NCBI GenBank assembly: GCA_963663275.1
Contig: OY760183.1
Coordinates: 2,976,001 to 3,040,000, forward strand
DNA from: Chloroflexota bacterium
GTDB lineage: Bacteria > Chloroflexota > UBA11872 > VXOZ01
Length of the DNA stretch: 64,000 nt
Direction of reading: 5' to 3'
The stretch's first letter is position 1, and each line of letters starts with the position of its first letter. Below the pieces are notes generated by a model. That model searched no databases and was not told the DNA's origin. It saw only the letters and a program-made list of their open reading frames with translations. Shown piece after piece: positions 7,113 to 46,085 of the stretch. Both the position numbers and the translations under genes were made by a program.

Positions 7113-7299
7113 CAATGCTGTCGCACTTACCTTCCCGGTCAGGAGCATGGCGTTTCCAGTGAACCGCGTCTCCGGTAGCGCAGGTTCGCGCGGGAAGTGC
7201 GCATAACCTGCGTCTTCTGTAGGGTCAATCCATTCCGTAAGCACTTCTCTTGTTCCGGCGGGGGACAAGCCCCCGCGCTACGTTAACGCGACAGCATTG
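7113..7299. mobile_element. MITE family A (IS4-type ends) carrying an internal REP-A
   Basis: caatgctgtcgca ... gcgacagcattg ends match the IS at 42017-43210; flanked by REP half-sites. Confidence 0.75.
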
Positions 7300-17691: not shown

Positions 17692-17897
17692 CAAGGGTAT
17701 CGCGTAAACGTAGCGCGGGGGCTTGTCCCCCGCCAGAGCAAGAACACTAGCTCCACAAAGGTTTGATCGAACAAAGACGCAGGTTTAATCCACTCCGTTA
17801 GCGCTTCTCTTGTTCCGGCGGGGGACAAGCCCCCGCGCTACATTAACACGACTGCATTGGGGACTTCCCACCGCGCTATGTTAACGCGGCAACGTTG
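17692..17897. mobile_element. MITE family A, palindromic variant plus a stacked extra right end
   Basis: Follows gggacaagccc; begins caagggtatcgcgtaaac+REP, ends REP+attaacacgactgcattg (17859), then a 38-bp half-REP+TIR unit ending 17897. Confidence 0.65.
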
Positions 17898-21837: not shown

Positions 21838-22205
21838 GTAGCGCGGGGGATCGTCCCCCGCCTAACTCTTCCCGTAGCGCGGGGGCTTGTCCCCCGCCAG
21901 CGCAACACACGCAGGTTACAAACCTACGCTACCAGACTACTGCACCCGCAACGCGGGAGGCTCGTCCCCCGCCTAATCTCTTCCCGTAGCGCGGGGGCTT
22001 GTCCCCCGCCTGTTCAACACGCGCAGGTTACAAACCTACGCTACCGGACTACGGACGCCGTAGCGTGGGGGCTTGTCCCCAATGCTGTCGCGTAAAGCTA
22101 ATGAGCACTGTACTACCCGTTCGTGCTGAGCCTGTCGAAGCATGAACGGCTATTCGCCACCTTTCGGCGGTTCCGTTCACCCTTCGACGCGGCTCAGGGC
22201 GAACG
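21838..22205. repeat. Mosaic repeat cluster (REP-A, REP-B, solo IS4-type end at 22080, CCGTTCGTGCTGAGCCTGTCGAAG pair)
   Basis: Repeated gtagcgcgggggcttgtcccccgc and gcaggttacaaacctacgctac; caatgctgtcgc directly after gggcttgtccc. Confidence 0.85.
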
Positions 22206-22370
22206 TTCCTCGTGCAGACAAAACGATCGTAAACAGGTTCTTAGGGACGAGCAGGCTAGATGACGTGACGTGCCACATCTTAGGACTGTGAAGCACTCGC
22301 TGTGTGTTCTGTCCGTTCAGTGGTTGCTATCTGCGGACCACGTCGCGTCAGAGATAGCCACTCTTTGCAC

Positions 22371-24140: not shown

Positions 24141-24308
24141 GTAGCGCGGGGGCTTGTCCCCCGCCAGCGCAACACGCGCAGGTTGCAAACCTACGCTACC
24201 GCAATTCTACAGCCGTAGCGCGGGGGCTTGTCCCCCGCCAGCGCAACACGCGCAGGTTGCAAACCTACGCTACCGCAATTCTACAGCCGTAGCGCGGGGG
24301 CTTGTCCC
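24141..24308. repeat. BIME-like tandem of REP-A plus inverted REP-B, 74-bp period
   Basis: GTAG units at 24141, 24215, 24289; the third REP is interrupted by a MITE. Confidence 0.85.
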
Positions 24309-24484
24309 TAATGTCGTCGCATTAAACGCAATGAGAATGAAAACTACGCTCGTCTTTCCGGTAGCGCAGGTTCGCACGGGAGGTGCGCGTAACCTGCGTC
24401 TTCCGTACGGTCAGTCCATGCCATTCTCACTTTTCCTGTTCCGGCGGGGGACAAGCCCCCGCGCTACGTTAAGCGACAGCAATG
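24309..24484. mobile_element. MITE family A inserted in REP-A with 11-bp target duplication
   Basis: taatgtcgtcgcattaa ... ttaagcgacagcaatg; gggcttgtccc at both 24298-24308 and 24485-24495. Confidence 0.85.
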
Positions 24485-24705
24485 GGGCTTGTCCCCCGCC
24501 GGAGCCGTTTCTACCCAGGCGAGGATTGCTGTATTCCTATCGCACGTCAAGCACTTGACAATTGCGCCGAATTTCAGAGTGCTGCTATAGTATGCCCTAA
24601 GCGGCTTGATGGAACGAAAGGAGGCGGAAAACAGCGTAGTATCAGCCGCGCAAGGCCCGGTTACTTTTCCATGATTCGGTCACTTCCTCTTGAAGGAGGG
24701 AAACC

Positions 24706-41585: not shown

Positions 41586-42016
41586 GCCGCTTTCTCCCGG
41601 AGTGCTGCGCCGCTGCCGCCAACCGCGCGGCGAGAAGCGCCCGCGCTTACCAAGACTATGGTGCAGCAGACACTACGTTGTCAAGCAATGCCCGCCGCCG
41701 CGCGCCTTCTCCTCACCCAAATGGCGCCGCACTTAACGCGATAAGCATGAAAACTACGCCCGTTTCTCCGGTAGCGCAGGTTTGCAACCTGCTTCTTTAT
41801 TCTTACACCGGGTCAATCTCGTTCCTCCGGTAGCGCAGGTTTGCAACCTGCGTCCTCCGCAGGGTCTACCTCGTTCCTCCGGTAGCGCAGGTCTGTAACC
41901 TGCGTCCTCAATAGGGTCTGTTTCGTCTTTCCGGTAGCGCAGGTTTGTAGCCTGCGTCTTCCGCAGGGCCAGTCCGTTCCGCTAGCGTTCTGCTTGTTCC
42001 GGCGGGGGACAAGCCC

Positions 42017-43210
42017 CAATGCTGTCGCATTAACCGCTGAAGCGGAGTGCGCGGGGCAAGGAAGCGGCAAGCGTTCGCAGCCAGGAGACGCGAGTGCTGC
42101 TAGCTGGACGTAGTTCCTCCAAGAGCTGTGCGAGCACGGCCACGATGCTGGCGACCACCAAGGTGAGCCAGACGGCGGCACGGCTGTATCCAATGGGGCG
42201 GATTGCGCCCAACACATGCTTCAGCCAGCGAAAGAACAACTCGATCTGCCAGCGCTTGCGGTAGAGCCACACCACCTCTGGAGCGCTCAGGTCGTGACGG
42301 TCGGTGATGAAGTGGTGCGTTTTCCCCTGCGCCGTGCGGCTGACCACCAGGCGCATCTCTGCTAAGACCGCGCCGTTGCGGTTGTTGGCGCTGCCCAGCA
42401 CGATCACCGCGTCCCGCACCACCACGTCTCCTGCCGGCGTGCGCGCGCCGGTCACGGCACGCTCGCGCACCACGCAGTAGGCAGCCTGCGGGTGCAGGCG
42501 CGTCACGAAGTGCACACCTGCCTCCCGCATCTGCGCAAAGACCCGATGCGCGTAGTAGCCCAAGTCTAGCAAGAGCGTCCAGCCCTGCCACCGCGCCAGA
42601 TCCCAACGCTTGAACGCCGTCACGTCATTCGCGTCCGCCAACGTCACCTGTAACCGCGTCGGCACCTGTGTGTCCACGGCATATGCCATCTGCAGCCGTA
42701 CTCCCGCCTCATGCCCTTGGTGCACGCTCCACGGACTACACGCCGCGCTCAGCGCCAGAAAACTGCCGTCCACCGCCACCACCCGCCGTACGTGCGCCGG
42801 CCCACGTGCTTGCACCTGCCGCGCCAACACCTCCCACGCCGCCGTAAAACACGCCAACGGCCGCGTCTGGGATGAACGTGCCAACTGACTGTAACTTATG
42901 CCCGACGCTAAACCCAACCGCCGTCGCCACACCACATCACCCATCTGCAGCCCATGGCTTTGCCGCAGGCTCCCACTCCCACTCAGCACGTGACCAAGCA
43001 GCATCCCCACATGCGCTCGCACCGAAAAATGCTTGCGATAGCGATCCGCTCCCCTCACCCGTGCTGCCGCCGTCAGCGCCGGCTCCAACTCACGCCATAG
43101 CCGCCGTCCTACTCCTACCGTCTGTGCTACCATTAGCCAAGGCTCCTTTGTAAGATATATCGCTCATTACCTTACTAAAGTAGCCCCTTCACTTTAATGC
43201 GACAACATTG
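42017..43210 (-). mobile_element. Complete IS4-family insertion sequence (1194 bp)
   Basis: TIRs caatgctgtcgcattaa / ttaatgcgacaacattg (16 of 17 match); 11-bp target duplication gggacaagccc (42006-42016, 43211-43221). Confidence 0.92.
42030..43133 (-). CDS. IS4-family DDE transposase
   Basis: VAVDGS, LLDLGY, YRKRWQIELFFRWLK (YREK motif); stop codon lies inside the TIR. Confidence 0.93.
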   Translation of the reverse strand: MVAQTVGVGRRLWRELEPALTAAARVRGADRYRKHFSVRAHVGMLLGHVLSGSGSLRQSHGLQMGDVVWRRRLGLASGISYSQLARSSQTRPLACFTAAWEVLARQVQARGPAHVRRVVAVDGSFLALSAACSPWSVHQGHEAGVRLQMAYAVDTQVPTRLQVTLADANDVTAFKRWDLARWQGWTLLLDLGYYAHRVFAQMREAGVHFVTRLHPQAAYCVVRERAVTGARTPAGDVVVRDAVIVLGSANNRNGAVLAEMRLVVSRTAQGKTHHFITDRHDLSAPEVVWLYRKRWQIELFFRWLKHVLGAIRPIGYSRAAVWLTLVVASIVAVLAQLLEELRPASSTRVSWLRTLAASLPRALRFSG

Positions 43211-43253
43211 GGGACAAGCCCCCGCGCTACGTTAACGCGACAGCATTGTCCCC

Positions 43254-43392
43254 CCTCACCCTAACCCTCTCCCCCAGGAGAGGGAACCGGAGGCGAACTT
43301 TGCTCACTCTCTCGTGGGGAGAGGGTACCGGAGGCGCTCTTTCTTGCCCCCTCTCCACAGTCTCCTGGGGAGAGGGCCGGGGTGAGGGGAGG
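43254..43392. repeat. CCCTCACCC/GGGAGAGGG palindromic repeat cluster
   Basis: cctcaccctaaccctctccccc ... ggggagagggccggggtgagggg. Confidence 0.7.
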
Positions 43393-43502
43393 GACGCCTC
43401 TCAGCGGTCTGTTTCGTCTCTCATCTGGAGAGCGTTTCCTCGCGCTCCCGGCGACAATCTCAAAGGGCTGGCTGATGGATTTTGGGTTTGGGTCTAAACC
43501 CC

Positions 43503-46085
43503 TTACTCCCGCGCCTTTTGCTTCAGTTCGTACAGCGCGCTGATGGCCTCCAGGGGAGTCATAGCGTCCACGTCCAGGTCGCGCAGCGCCGCCAGGGCCG
43601 GATGGGGGCCGCTGAAGAGCGGCATTTGGCCGGCGCCGTCCTGGCGTGGGGCCGGCGCCGGTTCGCCGCGCAGTTGCCGTTCCTCCAGTTCGTGCAGCAC
43701 CTGTTCCGCCCGCCGCAGCACCGGGCGCGGCAGGCCGGCCAGCTTAGCCACGTTGACGCCGTACGACCGGTCCGCGCCGCCCGGCGCCACCTTGTGCAGA
43801 AAGACCACGTTTCCCCGCTCTTCCAGCACGTCCACCCGGGAGTTCTTCACCCGGGGCAGCGTGCCTTCCAGTTCGGCCAGTTCGTGGAAGTGAGTGGCAA
43901 AGAGCGTCTTGCAGCGCAGGCCCGCGTGGTTGTGCAGGTATTCCAGCACGGCGCGGGCGATGGCCAGGCCGTCGTAGGTGCTGGTGCCGCGCCCCACCTC
44001 GTCGAAGACCACCAGCGAGCGCGGCGTCGCGTGGGTGAGGATGTAGCTCGTCTCCGTCATCTCCACCATGAAGGTGCTCGCGCCGGCCGCGATTTCGTCC
44101 TGCGCCCCCACCCGCGTGAAGATGCGGTCCACGATGCCGACGCGCGCCGACCGCGCCGCGACAAAGCTGCCCACCTGCGCCATCAGCACGGTGAGCGCCA
44201 CCTGGCGCAAGTACGTAGACTTGCCGGCCATGTTCGGCCCGGTGAGCACCACGATCTGTTGCTCCGCGTCCAGCCGCGCGTCGTTGGGAATGAAGGGCGC
44301 GCCCTCCAACGCCGCTTCCACCACCGGATGGCGGCCCTCGCTGATCTCGATGCAATCCCCCTCGTCCACCACCGGCCGCGCGTAGTTGCGGCGGGCGGCC
44401 GCCCTAGCGAACGCGGCCAGCACGTCCAGCGCGGCGAGGCCCTGCGCCAGCGCGCGCAAGCGCCGCTCTTCCGCCGCCACGCTCTCCACGATGCCCTCGA
44501 AGATCCGCTGCTCCAGGGCGCTCAGTTCTTCTTCCGCGTTCAGTATCAGCGATTCGGCGTCCTGCAACTCCGTGGTGCTGTAACGCTCGCCCGTGGTCAG
44601 GGTCTGCTTGCGCATGTAGCGTTCCGGCACGCTGTCCAGCGCGCCTTTGCTGACCTCCAGGTAGTAGCCGTAGACCTTGTTGTGGCCCACCCGGAGATTC
44701 TTGATGCCGGTGGCGTGCCGCTCCTTGGCCTCGAGATTCGCGATGAACGCCCGCGCTTCTTGCGCGCGCCGCGCCAGTTCGTCCAGTTCCGCGCTGTATC
44801 CCGGCTTGATTGGCGCTTCTCCCGGTTCCGCGCCAATGGCAGCGTCGAGCAGCGCCGCCACTTCCGGGGCCGGATCGAGCCGGTCGGCGCGCTCGTGGAT
44901 AGGCGGAGCCGTCGATGCGCGCAGCAGTTCTTCAATTGTTGCCGCCGCCTCCAGCGACCGGCCCAAGCGCGCCAGGTCCTGCGGCGTGGCCAGACGCTGC
45001 GCGGCGCGGTGGGCCAGCCGCTCCACGTCGGCCAACTTCCCCAGTTGCTCGCGCAGCCGCTCCAGCACAACCCGGTCCTGCGTCAAGGCTTCGACCGTCT
45101 CCAGGCGCGCCTCGATGGCGGCCACGTCCACCAGGGGCTGCGTCAGCCACTGGCGCAGCAGGCGGCCGCCCATCGCGCTGCGCGTCTCATCCAACACGCC
45201 CAGCAGCGAACCCTCTTCCTGTTGCGTGCGGCTGTTGCGCACGATTTCCAGGTTGCGCAGCGTGGCGGGATCCAGGCCCATGAAGGAGTCGAGGGAGTAG
45301 GTGCGCAGACCGTCCAAACTGCCGAGGAACGACTTCTGGGTCTCTTCCAGATAGGCCAGCAGCCCGCCGGCGGCGCGGGTCGCCAGCGGCAGATCGGCGC
45401 AGCCAAAGCCGTCCAGCGTGGCGACGCCGAGCACCCGCAGCAGCGTGCTCGTCGCTTCCTGCAAATCGAAGTGCCACGCGGCATAGGACATCTGCGAAAC
45501 AGCCGTCGTCTGAGGCTGGGCAGGCAGTTCCAGCGTCGCGCCTTCGGGGAGAACGCACTCCGCCGGTTGCAGACGCCCCAATTCAGCGGCCAGGACGGCC
45601 TCGGCATCCTCCCGGATCTCGGTCGCGGCGAACTCGCCCGTGCTCACGTCCGCATACGCCAGTCCGACGCGCTTCTTGGCCCGCACGACTGCCGCGACGT
45701 AGGTGTGCTCTTTGGCCGCCAGCAGATCGGGGTCGACGATCGTGCCCGGCGTAGCCACGCGCACCACCGCGCGCTCCACCAGTCCGTGCCCCGGCTCCGA
45801 GACCTGTTCGCAGATCGCGACGCGGTGCCCCGCCGCCAGCAATTGTCCCAGATACCGTTCTGCGGCGTGGGCGGGCACGCCGCACATGGGCATCTTCTCG
45901 CGCTTGCCGAATTCCCGGGCCGTGAGGACGATCTGCAAGGTCTCGGCAGCCACCTTGGCGTCATCCCCGAACAGTTCGTAGAAGTCGCCGAGGCGAAAGA
46001 ACAGCAAGGCATCCGGGTAATTGCCCTTGATGCGGTAGTACTGCTCTTGAATCGGCGTCAGGCCGCGGGCAGAGGACTTTGGCAT
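43503..46085 (-). CDS. mutS: DNA mismatch repair protein MutS
   Basis: FRLGDFYELF, TGPNMAGKSTYLRQ, STFMVEM, DEVGRGTST, SYGVNVAKLAG. Confidence 0.97.
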   Translation of the reverse strand: MPKSSARGLTPIQEQYYRIKGNYPDALLFFRLGDFYELFGDDAKVAAETLQIVLTAREFGKREKMPMCGVPAHAAERYLGQLLAAGHRVAICEQVSEPGHGLVERAVVRVATPGTIVDPDLLAAKEHTYVAAVVRAKKRVGLAYADVSTGEFAATEIREDAEAVLAAELGRLQPAECVLPEGATLELPAQPQTTAVSQMSYAAWHFDLQEATSTLLRVLGVATLDGFGCADLPLATRAAGGLLAYLEETQKSFLGSLDGLRTYSLDSFMGLDPATLRNLEIVRNSRTQQEEGSLLGVLDETRSAMGGRLLRQWLTQPLVDVAAIEARLETVEALTQDRVVLERLREQLGKLADVERLAHRAAQRLATPQDLARLGRSLEAAATIEELLRASTAPPIHERADRLDPAPEVAALLDAAIGAEPGEAPIKPGYSAELDELARRAQEARAFIANLEAKERHATGIKNLRVGHNKVYGYYLEVSKGALDSVPERYMRKQTLTTGERYSTTELQDAESLILNAEEELSALEQRIFEGIVESVAAEERRLRALAQGLAALDVLAAFARAAARRNYARPVVDEGDCIEISEGRHPVVEAALEGAPFIPNDARLDAEQQIVVLTGPNMAGKSTYLRQVALTVLMAQVGSFVAARSARVGIVDRIFTRVGAQDEIAAGASTFMVEMTETSYILTHATPRSLVVFDEVGRGTSTYDGLAIARAVLEYLHNHAGLRCKTLFATHFHELAELEGTLPRVKNSRVDVLEERGNVVFLHKVAPGGADRSYGVNVAKLAGLPRPVLRRAEQVLHELEERQLRGEPAPAPRQDGAGQMPLFSGPHPALAALRDLDVDAMTPLEAISALYELKQKARE

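What the first reader, a model, noticed from the sequence alone, without database searches (positions are those of the whole stretch)
41719..43248. Self-seeding transposition system: an IS4 element targets a REP palindrome that its own MITEs carry as cargo
Seen: the intact IS4-family element (42017-43210) duplicates the 11-mer gggacaagccc at the centre of REP-A (GTAGCGCGGGGGCTTGTCCCCCGC). That REP lies about 18 bp inside the right end of a larger non-autonomous element whose ends match the IS TIR (caatgctgtcgc.../...gcgacagcattg). IS-free copies of this MITE occur at 7113-7299, 17692-17859 and 24309-24484, all with REP-A abutting the right TIR, and their ends sit at the same position within another REP-A. 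Known: some IS target REPs (IS1397 of the IS3 family, IS621 of the IS110 family), and GTAG REPs are normally tied to RAYT/TnpA-REP. Inference: each MITE jump disrupts one target but delivers a new intact one, giving a self-renewing intergenic landing pad and a DDE-driven route of REP spread. I do not know of this arrangement being described.
Basis: partly seen in the sequence, partly recalled or inferred. Interest (0 to 1): 0.85.

Follow-up and report, generated by a model that had tools for sequence, protein, structure and literature searches.

The report
REP-targeting IS with REP-carrying MITEs
A small jumping gene and its gene-less miniature copies insert exactly into the tip of a common hairpin repeat of this bacterium, and the miniature copies carry a fresh copy of that hairpin, so each jump replaces the landing site it destroys.

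Summary
Window 42017-43210 is one of four intact copies of a 1194-bp IS4-family element. All four have an 11-bp duplication (GGGNNNNNCCC) at the apex of REP-A, GTAGCGCGGGGGCTTGTCCCCCGC, which has 567 copies. Sixty TIR pairs were found. Thirty-two are 162-bp MITEs that share only the 17-bp ends with the IS, and 28 of these have perfect 11-bp duplications.

This MITE carries an intact REP-A one base inside one TIR, plus an inverted REP-B. That is the genome's usual REP doublet. Thirteen insertions, including two IS copies (the window copy is one), sit in such cargo REPs, in proportion to their abundance.

A RAYT gene flanked by REP-A arrays exists, and RAYT matches occur in all 17 genomes of the genus. 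The IS was found in only two.

What is already known: REP-axis insertion by an IS4-family element (ISRm22), and the 11-bp GGGNNNNNCCC target (IS231A). I did not find a MITE that carries its own REP target in print.

"REP spread" is only partly supported. Insertion into a REP is net zero, and gains come only from non-REP sites. An unexpected result is that cargo REP-A diverges about 7 times less than the MITE's own TIRs.

Verdict: a new variant of a known kind, of moderate interest.

The parts
42017..43210 (-). Intact IS4-family insertion sequence, 1194 bp. One of 4 copies in the genome.
   Evidence: Four full-length copies, >=99.3% identical. The TIRs were read.
42030..43133 (-). Transposase gene, 367 aa: DDE with the YREK signature YRKRWQIELFFRWLK.
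   Evidence: Pfam DDE_Tnp_1, E 7e-23. NCBIfam NF033592 IS4 family, 156.9 bits against a cut-off of 115. The ORF and the motif were read. It is intact in all 4 copies.
42017..42033 (+). IS terminal inverted repeat, CAATGCTGTCGCATTAA, at the 3' end of the transposase gene.
43194..43210 (-). IS terminal inverted repeat, CAATGTTGTCGCATTAA. It differs from the other TIR at one base.
42006..42016 (.). Left copy of the 11-bp target duplication, GGGACAAGCCC (top 3 stem pairs plus the 5-nt loop of REP-A).
   Evidence: Hairpin fold.
43211..43221 (.). Right copy of the 11-bp target duplication, GGGACAAGCCC.
43211..43230 (-). GTAG-side half of the split cargo REP-A, GGGACAAGCCCCCGCGCTAC. The other half ends at 42016.
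43232..43248 (-). Right TIR of the outer, older MITE (TTAACGCGACAGCATTG), 1 nt from the cargo REP-A.
41718..42016 (+). Left part of the outer MITE: a degenerate TIR (CAAATGGCGCCGCACTTA), the arm, four REP-B units, a spacer, and the left half of the cargo REP-A.
   Evidence: the sequence matches the non-REP arm of the 162/177-bp MITE (...AACGCGATAAGCATGAAAACTACG). Coordinates.
41810..41968 (+). Tandem amplification of the MITE's REP-B unit (period 52, 3.1 copies).
43249..43400 (+). Second repeat family ('C-rep', CCCCCTCACCCTAACCCTCTCCCCCAGGAGAGGG...) in which the outer MITE sits. It is a secondary hot spot for this TIR family.
   Evidence: 12 ends were tagged as abutting GGGTGAGGGGG or CCCCCTCACCC, and 43248 is a further untagged one. 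A 22-mer of the repeat has 196 copies (<=2 mismatches).
24309..24484 (-). IS-free 176-bp MITE with cargo REP-A and REP-B and a perfect duplication, GGGCTTGTCCC (24298-24308 and 24485-24495).
17692..17859 (.). 168-bp variant with REP-A inside both ends. It is inserted in the cargo REP of an older, degenerate end.
7113..7299 (-). 187-bp MITE variant with cargo REP-A. REP halves lie at both ends, but there is no duplication.
22080..22096 (+). Solo TIR at a REP-A apex. It leads into a different interior, a 130-bp repeat of its own.

Best explanation
THE HOST REPEAT SYSTEM. This is a parasite-on-parasite arrangement. The genome has a RAYT/REP system: one REP-associated tyrosine transposase gene, about 570 copies of REP-A and about 380 of REP-B. 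These often occur as an A-44 nt-inverted-B doublet.

THE IS. A 1194-bp IS4-family element encodes a DDE transposase. The transposase binds the 17-bp TIRs and cuts the target with an 11-bp stagger, symmetric about the dyad of REP-A. It therefore duplicates GGG+loop+CCC. The extended REP palindrome, and not just GGGNNNNNCCC, defines the preferred target.

THE MITES. MITEs sharing only the TIRs are moved in trans to the same sites. The dominant MITE family (162-177 bp) has the genome's standard REP-A/REP-B doublet as its interior, with REP-A 1 nt from a TIR. Each insertion therefore splits one REP-A and lays down an intact one about 30 bp away. That intact copy is later used as a target in proportion to its abundance, which produces nested arrays. 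At the occasional non-REP target the MITE plants a new REP-A.

SHOWN: the anatomy, the duplications, the target positions, the nesting, the RAYT gene and the distribution across the genus.

INFERRED: that this transposase moves the MITEs; that specificity lies in the transposase rather than in selection after insertion; and that carrying the target benefits the MITE or lowers the cost of insertion.
For: IS family and target
- IS4 family: Pfam DDE_Tnp_1; NF033592 above its cut-off; the YREK motif and a single ORF; an 11-bp duplication.
- All 4 IS copies have perfect GGGN5CCC duplications at the REP-A apex.
- 193 TIR ends were found, against 1 in the control, and 124 of them lie at the REP-A apex.

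MITEs
- Of 32 MITEs of 162 bp, 28 have perfect 11-bp duplications and 27 fit GGGN5CCC.
- Clusters of 9, 6 and 3 copies are >=98% identical, which points to recent activity in the genome that holds the intact IS.
- Cargo: TIR - C - REP-A - 44 nt - inverted REP-B - arm - TIR.
- The same A/B doublet occurs 135 times in the genome, 63 of them with no TIR nearby.

Re-use of cargo REPs
- 13 nested events were found, including 2 of the 4 IS copies.
- The nested share is 13 of 66, equal to the share of intact REP-A copies that are TIR-borne, 113 of 567.

Specificity beyond the core motif
- Of 1698 GGGN5CCC sites, 547 lie in REP-A. A crude coding mask leaves 348 non-REP sites in non-coding DNA.
- Yet all 33 perfect duplications that fit the motif lie in REP-A or a REP-A variant.

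RAYT
- PF01797 and NF047646 at 95.9 bits against a cut-off of 80.
- The gene is flanked by REP-A arrays in inverted orientation.

Genus and related elements
- Split-REP/TIR junctions occur in 16 of 17 genomes, the cargo pattern in 12 of 17, and RAYT in 17 of 17.
- A nested pair is also present in G011.
- 11 related IS loci were scanned, and G011's locus L029 (80% identical) was read. The other relatives are 37-57% identical and come from other Chloroflexota and Rubrobacteraceae MAGs.
- They share the end ...AATGNTGTCGCAT.
- Counting L029, 7 of the 12 loci have a GTAG- or TAG-tagged sequence directly against an end. Two more lie in C-rep-like repeats.
Against: - There is no experiment. Transposase specificity cannot be separated cleanly from loss of harmful insertions. 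My coding mask is crude, covering 74% where a real annotation would probably cover more.
- About a third of TIR ends (69 of 193) do not meet my strict REP-half test. Many of these are degenerate REP-A, but 12 were tagged in a different repeat with a non-palindromic duplication, GGGTGAGGGGG, and 43248 is a further untagged one. A few lie at unrelated sites. The target rule is therefore not absolute.
- The IS protein matched in only 2 of the 17 genomes of the genus (2 of 41 genomes searched). Yet 16 of 17 have TIR/REP junctions. What moved those MITEs is unknown.
- G010 has 35 junctions and no cargo pattern. MITEs without cargo therefore also do well.
- The benefit of carrying the target rests on two families in one genome: the cargo family has 75 cargo-bearing ends, and the cargo-less families are far fewer.
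- I found no clean empty site. The orthologous spacer in the closest relative, G011, is too rearranged.
Confidence: 0.78

Rival explanations
1. The arrangement is real but has no consequence. A REP doublet was captured once between two IS ends, or was placed by the RAYT into an old MITE. The MITE's success owes nothing to its cargo, and 'self-seeding' is a by-product with no effect on MITE or REP dynamics.
For: - Cargo-less MITE families with the same TIR also sit at REP apexes.
- G010 has 35 REP/TIR junctions and no match to the cargo pattern.
- The intact REP-A pool is large (567) compared with roughly 60-70 disrupted copies. Target depletion is therefore not obviously limiting.
- Insertion into a REP is net zero for REP number.
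Against: - The cargo family is much the most abundant. Of 193 ends, 75 carry cargo REP-A, and the two genomes with the most cargo ends (102 and 65) also have the most junctions (103 and 66). This is confounded by kinship and by the presence of the IS.
- Cargo REPs are in fact re-used (13 events).
- Cargo REPs also seed non-REP loci.
- Cargo REP-A is held nearly invariant while the TIRs drift. The cargo is therefore not decaying junk.
Confidence: 0.35
2. The transposase recognises only a short core (GGGNNNNNCCC, as published for IS231A). The near-exclusive REP location arises because REP-A supplies a third of such sites and insertions elsewhere are lost to selection.
For: - The duplication fits GGGN5CCC in 33 of 35 perfect cases.
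- 547 of the 1698 such sites are REP-A apexes, and 803 of the rest fall in putative coding DNA.
- The motif and the 11-bp length match IS231A (PMC2577343, Table 1).
Against: - With 499 REP-A and up to 348 non-REP non-coding sites, about 41% of surviving insertions should lie outside REP-A. I saw 0 of 33.
- The secondary hot spot, GGGTGAGGGGG, does not fit the core.
- Relatives of the IS sit in differently sequenced GTAG REPs in other genomes. This suggests that the palindrome as a whole is recognised.
- The mask is crude, and non-coding sites are not all neutral.
Confidence: 0.12
3. The TIR-plus-REP unit is an extended REP or REPIN moved by the RAYT (HUH/Y1 transposase), not by the DDE transposase.
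For: - A RAYT is present in every genome of the genus, while the IS is rare.
- The MITE interior is the genome's standard REP doublet.
- Cargo REP-A is kept like the free REPs.
Against: - Perfect 11-bp duplications lie exactly outside the 17-bp TIRs. These TIRs are identical to the IS ends. From my own knowledge, not tested here, IS200/IS605-type Y1 transposition makes no duplication and needs no TIRs.
- The same target position and duplication length are seen for the IS itself.
Confidence: 0.03

Closest known systems
ISRm22 of Sinorhizobium meliloti (IS4 family, subgroup IS4Sa). Sources: Tobes & Pareja 2006, PMC1525189, and De Palmenaer et al. 2008, PMC2266710. I read passages of both.
   Same: It has a DDE_Tnp_1-type transposase. 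All copies are inserted in REPs with the insertion point at the palindromy axis. Some copies have hybrid flanks, attributed to recombination.
   Different: It makes 6-bp direct repeats, against 11 bp here. The passages I read mention no MITE derivatives and no element that carries the REP target. Similarity to the present transposase was not tested; plasmid hits from S. meliloti were annotated ISRm16, at about 29% identity.
IS231A and its cassettes (IS4 family, subgroup IS231)
   Same: An 11-bp duplication with target motif GGGNNNNNCCC (PMC2577343, Table 1, citing Hallet et al. 1994), and cut-and-paste transposition (PMC2266710). I recall from my own knowledge that non-autonomous cassettes bounded by IS231 ends (MIC231) are moved in trans.
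   Different: The IS231 end signature, CAT-------AA--TAA, is not matched, because the ends here start CAAT. The subgroup is almost confined to the Bacillus cereus group (PMC2266710). Bacillus was not among the ten most frequent genera in 365 plasmid records hit by tblastn. From recall, IS231A's classic hot spot is the end of Tn4430, not a REP.
IS1397 / ISKpn1 (IS3 family) and IS621 / ISPpu9 / ISPpu10 / ISPa11 (IS110 family)
   Same: These are insertion sequences specific for REPs. The specificity is proven experimentally for IS1397, ISKpn1 and IS621 (PMC1525189 and PMC3184786, passages read).
   Different: They belong to other transposase families and use other chemistry. The duplications are short or absent: 3 bp for ISPsy8 (IS3 family), 2 bp for ISPpu9/10, none for ISPa11 (PMC1525189). 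IS110-family elements use a guide RNA (abstracts listed). The passages read report no MITE that carries the REP.
REPIN/RAYT and BIME systems. Sources: Bertels & Rainey 2011 and Nunvar et al. 2010, seen only as abstracts in the search listing, and Di Nocera et al. 2013, PMC3733652, of which I read passages and section 7.
   Same: GTAG-tagged hairpins in hundreds of copies, doublets in inverted orientation, and a RAYT gene flanked by REPs. GTAG REPs are reported in Chloroflexi. Di Nocera et al. note Anabaena variabilis GTAG-15 dimers lying inside long palindromes that never occur without them. That looks like a TIR-bounded REP doublet.
   Different: There the REP doublet is the mobile unit of a Y1 transposase. 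Here the doublet is also the cargo of a DDE-moved MITE whose target is the same REP. The A. variabilis case was not read as a MITE, and no REP targeting was reported for it.

Membership tests
IS4 family (De Palmenaer et al. 2008, PMC2266710) | DDE transposase encoded by a single ORF without a frameshift | tested here: met
   One 367-aa ORF, intact in all 4 copies. Pfam DDE_Tnp_1, E 7e-23. NF033592 at 156.9 bits against a cut-off of 115.
IS4 family (De Palmenaer et al. 2008, PMC2266710) | Y-(2)-R-(3)-E-(6)-K signature | tested here: met
   YRKRWQIELFFRWLK, read in the translation.
IS4 family (De Palmenaer et al. 2008, PMC2266710) | Target duplication of about one helix turn | tested here: met
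   11 bp in 4 of 4 IS copies and 28 of 32 MITEs of 162 bp.
IS4 family (De Palmenaer et al. 2008, PMC2266710) | D(60-110)D(100-150)E spacing | not tested
   I did not map the catalytic D residues. Only the Pfam domain span, residues 115-329, is known.
IS4 subgroup 'IS4' (Table 1 of PMC2266710) | Ends -AATR--------WTW-, direct repeats of 10-13 bp, size 1400-1650 bp | tested here: inconclusive
   CAATGCTGTCGCATTAA fits AATR at positions 2-5 and WTW at positions 14-16, and the 11-bp repeat fits. The 1194-bp size is below the range. The ends also fit the looser IS4Sa signature (CA------T), whose repeats are 8-10 bp. No tree against ISfinder references was possible.
IS4 subgroup 'IS231' | End signature CAT-------AA--TAA, high mutual protein identity, Bacillus cereus group hosts | tested here: not met
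   The ends start CAAT. Bacillus is not among the ten most frequent genera in 365 plasmid records hit. Only the target motif, GGGNNNNNCCC with an 11-bp repeat, is shared.
MITE of this IS | TIRs matching an autonomous element, the same duplication length and target, no coding capacity, small size, many copies | tested here: met
   The TIR matches the IS end at 17 of 17 positions. The elements are 162-193 bp. Of 32 copies of 162 bp, 28 have perfect 11-bp duplications at the same REP position. Trans-mobilisation itself cannot be tested with these tools.
RAYT / REP system | Y1 (HUH) transposase of the REP-associated clade | tested here: met
   NF047646 REP_Tyr_transpos at 95.9 bits against a cut-off of 80. 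It scores far above IS200 (33 bits). PF01797 scores 43.7 bits.
RAYT / REP system | The gene is flanked by the REPs in inverted orientation, the REPs carry a GTAG tag and hairpin, and they number in the hundreds | tested here: met
   Three REP-A copies lie upstream on the + strand, one of them split by an IS copy. Four lie downstream on the - strand. There are 362 exact copies and 567 with <=3 mismatches, against 0 in the control. The hairpin has a 7-bp stem and a 5-nt loop, -9.3 kcal/mol.
REP-specific insertion sequences (type 1 association of Tobes & Pareja 2006) | [quoted passage not shown] | tested here: met
   4 of 4 IS copies and 124 of 193 TIR ends.

The most novel reading that the evidence does not exclude
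The 162-177-bp element is a true chimera of two unrelated transposition systems. It is a DDE-moved MITE whose interior is the RAYT system's own REP doublet.

Because its target is that same REP, it regenerates its landing site at every jump, builds nested arrays, and plants REPs at new loci. Its cargo stays 'alive' as a REP: it diverges about 7 times less than the MITE's own TIRs. This implies selection on the REP, or RAYT- or conversion-driven homogenisation.

The element may even be movable by either enzyme. If so, REP families and REP-targeting IS/MITEs would co-evolve as a coupled system across this Chloroflexota genus.
Probability: 0.3. Interest if true: 0.75.

Novelty: new variant of a known kind. 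Interest (0 to 1): 0.55.

Why it matters
REP-specific insertion sequences have been known for over two decades. They are usually pictured as consumers of a host repeat. Here the non-autonomous derivative carries the repeat it consumes, which gives three things.

1. A natural case of a transposon that renews its own safe landing site.
2. A second route, independent of the RAYT, by which REPs reach new loci.
3. An internal clock comparison, cargo REP against TIR within the same copies. It shows that REP sequences are held constant by something other than the MITE's own need to transpose. This bears on the old question of whether REPs are selected or merely homogenised.

The transposase is small (367 aa) and its target is a defined 11-bp-centred palindrome. 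REP-plus against REP-minus assays are therefore straightforward.

Tried and rejected
EMPTY-SITE PROOF. I searched the genus with the IS locus plus flanks. I then fetched the orthologous spacer of the closest relative, G011, and aligned it. The flanking genes align at 89-93%. The spacer itself holds different repeats: a C-rep and another MITE end. No clean empty site could be shown.

IS231 KINSHIP. A tblastn of the transposase against plasmids gave only hits below 60% identity. They were annotated IS4 family, ISRel1, ISRm16, ISTeha5, ISAbe18 and ISPosp4. Bacillus was not among the ten most frequent genera, so I do not file the element under IS231. No ISfinder comparison was possible.

RAYT-MOVES-THE-MITE. 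I rejected this reading because of the duplications and the TIRs.

'ALL REP-A ARE MITE DEBRIS'. I rejected this. 367 of 567 REP-A copies have no TIR-like 17-mer upstream. 63 of 135 A/B doublets have none. The RAYT gene is flanked by REP-A arrays.

ORIENTATION BIAS. The cargo end faces the GTAG half in 30 cases and the other half in 21. There is no clear bias.

LITERATURE. Searches used combinations of these terms: REP, MITE, insertion sequence, target, nested insertion, own target, carries its target, IS1397, IS621 and IS231A. I also read passages of PMC1525189, PMC3184786, PMC3733652, PMC2266710 and PMC2577343. None describes a MITE that carries its own REP target. The library holds only open-licence papers. 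An earlier description may therefore exist.

CAVEATS ON MY OWN NUMBERS.
- The divergence of the TIRs is measured against one consensus, so subfamily variants inflate it.
- The 62 copies exclude 3 to 5 copies in which a REP or TIR could not be found within my mismatch limits.
- The coding mask is home-made, using ORFs of at least 300 nt with a GC3 excess.
Full report
WHAT IS AT THE SITE

Window 42017-43210 is a 1194-bp insertion sequence. Its 17-bp terminal inverted repeats are CAATGCTGTCGCATTAA and CAATGTTGTCGCATTAA. It has one 367-aa ORF on the minus strand.

The protein matches Pfam DDE_Tnp_1 (E 7e-23). It also matches NCBIfam NF033592 'IS4 family transposase' at 156.9 bits, against a cut-off of 115. 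It contains YRKRWQIELFFRWLK, the Y-(2)-R-(3)-E-(6)-K hallmark that De Palmenaer et al. give for the IS4 family (PMC2266710, passages read).

The element is flanked by GGGACAAGCCC on both sides. Removing the IS and one copy of this 11-mer rebuilds GCGGGGGACAAGCCCCCGCGCTAC. This is a GTAG-tagged hairpin with a 7-bp stem and a 5-nt loop (-9.3 kcal/mol as DNA). The duplication is the loop plus the top three stem pairs, so the staggered cuts are symmetric about the dyad.

One base beyond this REP lies a further end, TTAACGCGACAGCATTG (43232-43248). It belongs to an older non-autonomous element. That element's degenerate left end starts at 41718, and its interior holds four REP-B units, three of them as a 52-bp tandem array.

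IS IT MORE THAN CHANCE?

Yes.
- The 12-mer end occurs 7 times in the window against 0.94 expected.
- The whole genome is 3,531,182 bp in one contig, 64.3% G+C.
- The IS has 4 copies, >=99.3% identical. All 4 have perfect 11-bp duplications at the same REP position, 3 in one orientation and 1 in the other.
- The 17-mer end with up to 3 mismatches occurs 193 times, against once in the reversed genome.
- Of these ends, 124 abut a REP-A half exactly at the apex (<=2 mismatches in 13 nt).
- 75 are followed, after one C, by an intact REP-A.
- Stack-pairing gives 60 elements and 73 unpaired ends.
- The 60 elements are 32 of exactly 162 bp, 4 IS copies, and 24 others of 170-690 bp.
- Perfect 11-bp duplications flank 28 of the 32, 4 of the 4, and 3 of the 24. 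Of these 35 perfect cases, 33 fit GGGNNNNNCCC.
- Among the 162-bp copies there are clusters of 9, 6 and 3 that are >=98% identical. This points to recent bursts.

THE MITE AND ITS CARGO

The 162-bp element reads as follows: TIR, C, REP-A (GTAGCGCGGGGGCTTGTCCCCCGC), a 44-nt spacer, an inverted REP-B (GCAGGTTACAAACCTGCGCTAC), a 35-nt arm, TIR. It shares only the TIRs with the IS. A 177-bp form has 15 extra bases in the REP-B loop.

The interior is the genome's standard REP module. REP-A followed at a median of 44-45 nt by an inverted REP-B occurs 135 times. Of these, 53 have a clear TIR next to REP-A, 19 have a remnant, and 63 have none. The MITE is therefore a TIR-bounded copy of a BIME- or REPIN-like doublet.

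Other MITE families with the same TIRs but different interiors, about 174 bp with no REP, sit at the same REP position.

ARE CARGO REPS RE-USED?

Thirteen ends abut a split REP-A that is itself preceded, in the cargo register, by a TIR (<=6 of 17 mismatches). They include two of the four IS copies, the window copy being one.

That is 13 of the 66 ends that face the GTAG-side half, or 20%. The share of intact REP-A copies with such a TIR upstream is 113 of 567, also 20%. Cargo REPs are therefore used as targets in proportion to their number.

Nested ends are also present in a second species, G011.

HOW MUCH OF THE REP FAMILY IS MITE-BORNE?

REP-A has 362 exact copies and 567 copies with <=3 mismatches, against 0 in the control. 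REP-B has 379. I compared the 17-mer upstream of each REP-A with the TIR.
- 74 copies differ at <=3 positions.
- 113 copies differ at <=6 positions.
- 200 copies differ at <=9 positions. In a register shifted by one base, only 18 do.
- The 7-9 class still shows the consensus ..TGtCGCAT.AcC.

Between 13% and about a third of REP-A copies therefore lie on present or decayed MITE ends. The rest show no trace of a TIR.

THE RAYT

One gene (G000 382948-383439, 163 aa) matches PF01797. It also matches NF047646 'REP-associated tyrosine transposase' at 95.9 bits, against a cut-off of 80.

It has REP-A copies upstream on the plus strand and four downstream on the minus strand at 124-bp spacing. This is the classical arrangement. 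One IS copy has split an upstream REP 120 bp from the gene.

ACROSS THE GENUS (17 SPECIES GENOMES)

- RAYT matches occur in 17 of 17 genomes, with 13 over the cut-off.
- MITE-like DNA occurs in 17 of 17.
- Split-REP/TIR junctions occur in 16 of 17: 103 in G000, 66 in G011, 35 each in G012 and G010.
- The TIR-plus-cargo-REP pattern occurs in 12 of 17: 102, 65, 11 and 8 in the top four, and none in five genomes, G010 among them.
- The IS protein matched only in G000 (4 copies) and, as fragments, in G011. That is 2 of the 41 genomes searched.

The REP/RAYT system is therefore old and general in the genus. REP-apex insertion by this TIR family is also old. The cargo-bearing MITE is abundant only in the two genomes with the IS or its remains. 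These genomes are kin, so this is not a statistical test.

RELATIVES OF THE IS ELSEWHERE

A scan of one genome per species found 12 loci.
- One is G011's own copy, L029 (80% identical); I read its flanks.
- The other eleven are 37-57% identical. They come from Chloroflexia, Thermomicrobiales and Rubrobacteraceae MAGs, and I scanned them.
- Their ends read ...AATGNTGTCGCAT.
- Counting L029, 7 of the 12 have a GTAG- or TAG-tagged sequence directly against an end. L028, for example, sits at the apex of GTAGGGTCACGGGCTTGCCCTGACC.
- Two more (L032, L034) sit in C-rep-like repeats.
- L030 has a perfect 11-bp duplication.

REP targeting therefore looks like a trait of this IS lineage, and it holds across REPs of different sequence.

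SPECIFICITY OR SELECTION?

GGGNNNNNCCC occurs 1698 times in the genome, and 547 of these are REP-A apexes. A crude coding mask (74% coverage) puts 803 of the rest in coding DNA and 348 in non-coding DNA.

All 33 perfect duplications that fit the motif lie in REP-A or a REP-A variant. If the core alone were recognised and only non-coding insertions survived, about 41% should lie elsewhere. I take this as support for recognition of the extended palindrome. The mask is rough, and non-coding sites are not all neutral.

The rule is not absolute.
- 69 of 193 ends fail my strict REP-half test.
- Many of these are degenerate REP-A.
- 12 were tagged as lying in a second repeat (196 copies), with duplications such as CCCCCTCACCC. 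The window's outer MITE end at 43248 lies there too, untagged.
- A few are at unrelated sites.

The 'self-renewing landing pad' is what the sequence shows. The 'route of REP spread' needs qualifying.

A jump into a REP is net zero. Net gain comes only from jumps into other sites. Six paired cargo MITEs lie at non-REP-A sites. The window's outer element is a further such case, although its degenerate left end was not paired. Its planted REP-A was later hit by the IS.

AN UNEXPECTED RESULT

I ascertained 62 MITE copies on positions 43-145 only, a query that holds neither REP-A nor a TIR. Divergence per base from consensus was as follows.
- Cargo REP-A: 1.7% (found in 59 of the 62).
- The two TIRs: 12.9% and 11.1% (found in 57 and 59).
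- The body: 13.5%.

A column-wise count on a second set gave 99.5% conservation for REP-A and 96.7% for REP-B, against 84-90% elsewhere.

The part of the MITE that its own transposition does not need is thus the best kept. This fits selection on REPs or their homogenisation. It means the cargo behaves as a live member of the REP family. TIR divergence is somewhat inflated by subfamily variants.

COMPARISON WITH WHAT IS KNOWN

- REP-specific insertion is established for IS1397 and ISKpn1 (IS3 family) and for IS621 (IS110 family). It has been inferred from genomes for ISPsy8, ISPa11, ISPpu9, ISPpu10, ISRm19 and the IS4-family ISRm22. ISRm22 sits at the palindromy axis with 6-bp repeats (PMC1525189, passages).
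- An 11-bp duplication with motif GGGNNNNNCCC is the published target of IS231A (PMC2577343, Table 1).
- The present ends fit the 'IS4' subgroup signature (-AATR--------WTW-, repeats of 10-13 bp), but the element is shorter than that subgroup's range. The ends do not fit the IS231 signature.
- Di Nocera et al. mention Anabaena GTAG-15 dimers enclosed in long palindromes that never occur without them (PMC3733652, section 7). This may be a parallel case that was not recognised as such.
- I found no description of a MITE that carries the REP it targets. The library is limited to open-licence papers, and supplements were closed.

VERDICT

The IS is a new member of the known class of REP-targeting insertion sequences. 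The MITE that carries its own target, with the REP doublet as cargo, is a new variant of that class.

Shown: the anatomy, the duplications, the nesting, the RAYT gene and the distribution.

Inferred: that this transposase moves the MITEs, that the transposase rather than selection sets the target, and that carrying the target is of any advantage.

Interest 0.55.

Noticed in passing
window 43249-43400; genome-wide: A second abundant repeat ('C-rep', CCCCTCACCCTAACCCTCTCCC..., 196 copies with <=2 mismatches) contains a hairpin, CCCTCTCC...GGAGAGGG. It is a secondary insertion hot spot for this TIR family, with the duplication GGGTGAGGGGG / CCCCCTCACCC. Two distant relatives of the IS in other genomes (L032, L034) also sit in C-rep-like repeats.
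   Followed up: partly
G000:C1:381634-383439 (locus L001): One of the four IS copies has split a REP-A 120 bp upstream of the only RAYT gene. Whether this affects RAYT expression or mobility is unknown.
   Followed up: no
genome-wide: Within the same MITE copies, the cargo REP-A differs from consensus at 1.7% per base. The TIRs and the body differ at 11-13.5%. REP-B is also better kept, at 96.7% column conservation.
   Followed up: partly
window 22117-22247 and at least 28 other places: A separate 130-bp repeat (85-95% identical copies) lies just inside a solo TIR at 22080. I did not classify it.
   Followed up: no
G000:C1:2896484, 2896585, 2896686: Three TIR-like ends of the cargo-less MITE family lie in tandem at 101-bp spacing. 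Each is preceded by ...GGGGCACGRCAWGTCG. This looks like a tandem amplification of a MITE part.
   Followed up: no
G012, several contigs: In the draft genome G012, many contigs end about 110 bp from a TIR-plus-REP-A junction. This suggests a repeat longer than the MITE that broke the assembly. No match to this transposase was found there.
   Followed up: no
genome-wide: REP-A often occurs in direct tandem arrays: 170 adjacent same-strand pairs with a median gap of 21 nt. REP-B does the same, with 124 such pairs.
   Followed up: no
window 43503-46085 (-): An 860-aa ORF that begins like a MutS mismatch-repair protein lies directly right of the repeat-rich spacer. I named it by eye from the translation and did not test it against a family library.
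   Followed up: no
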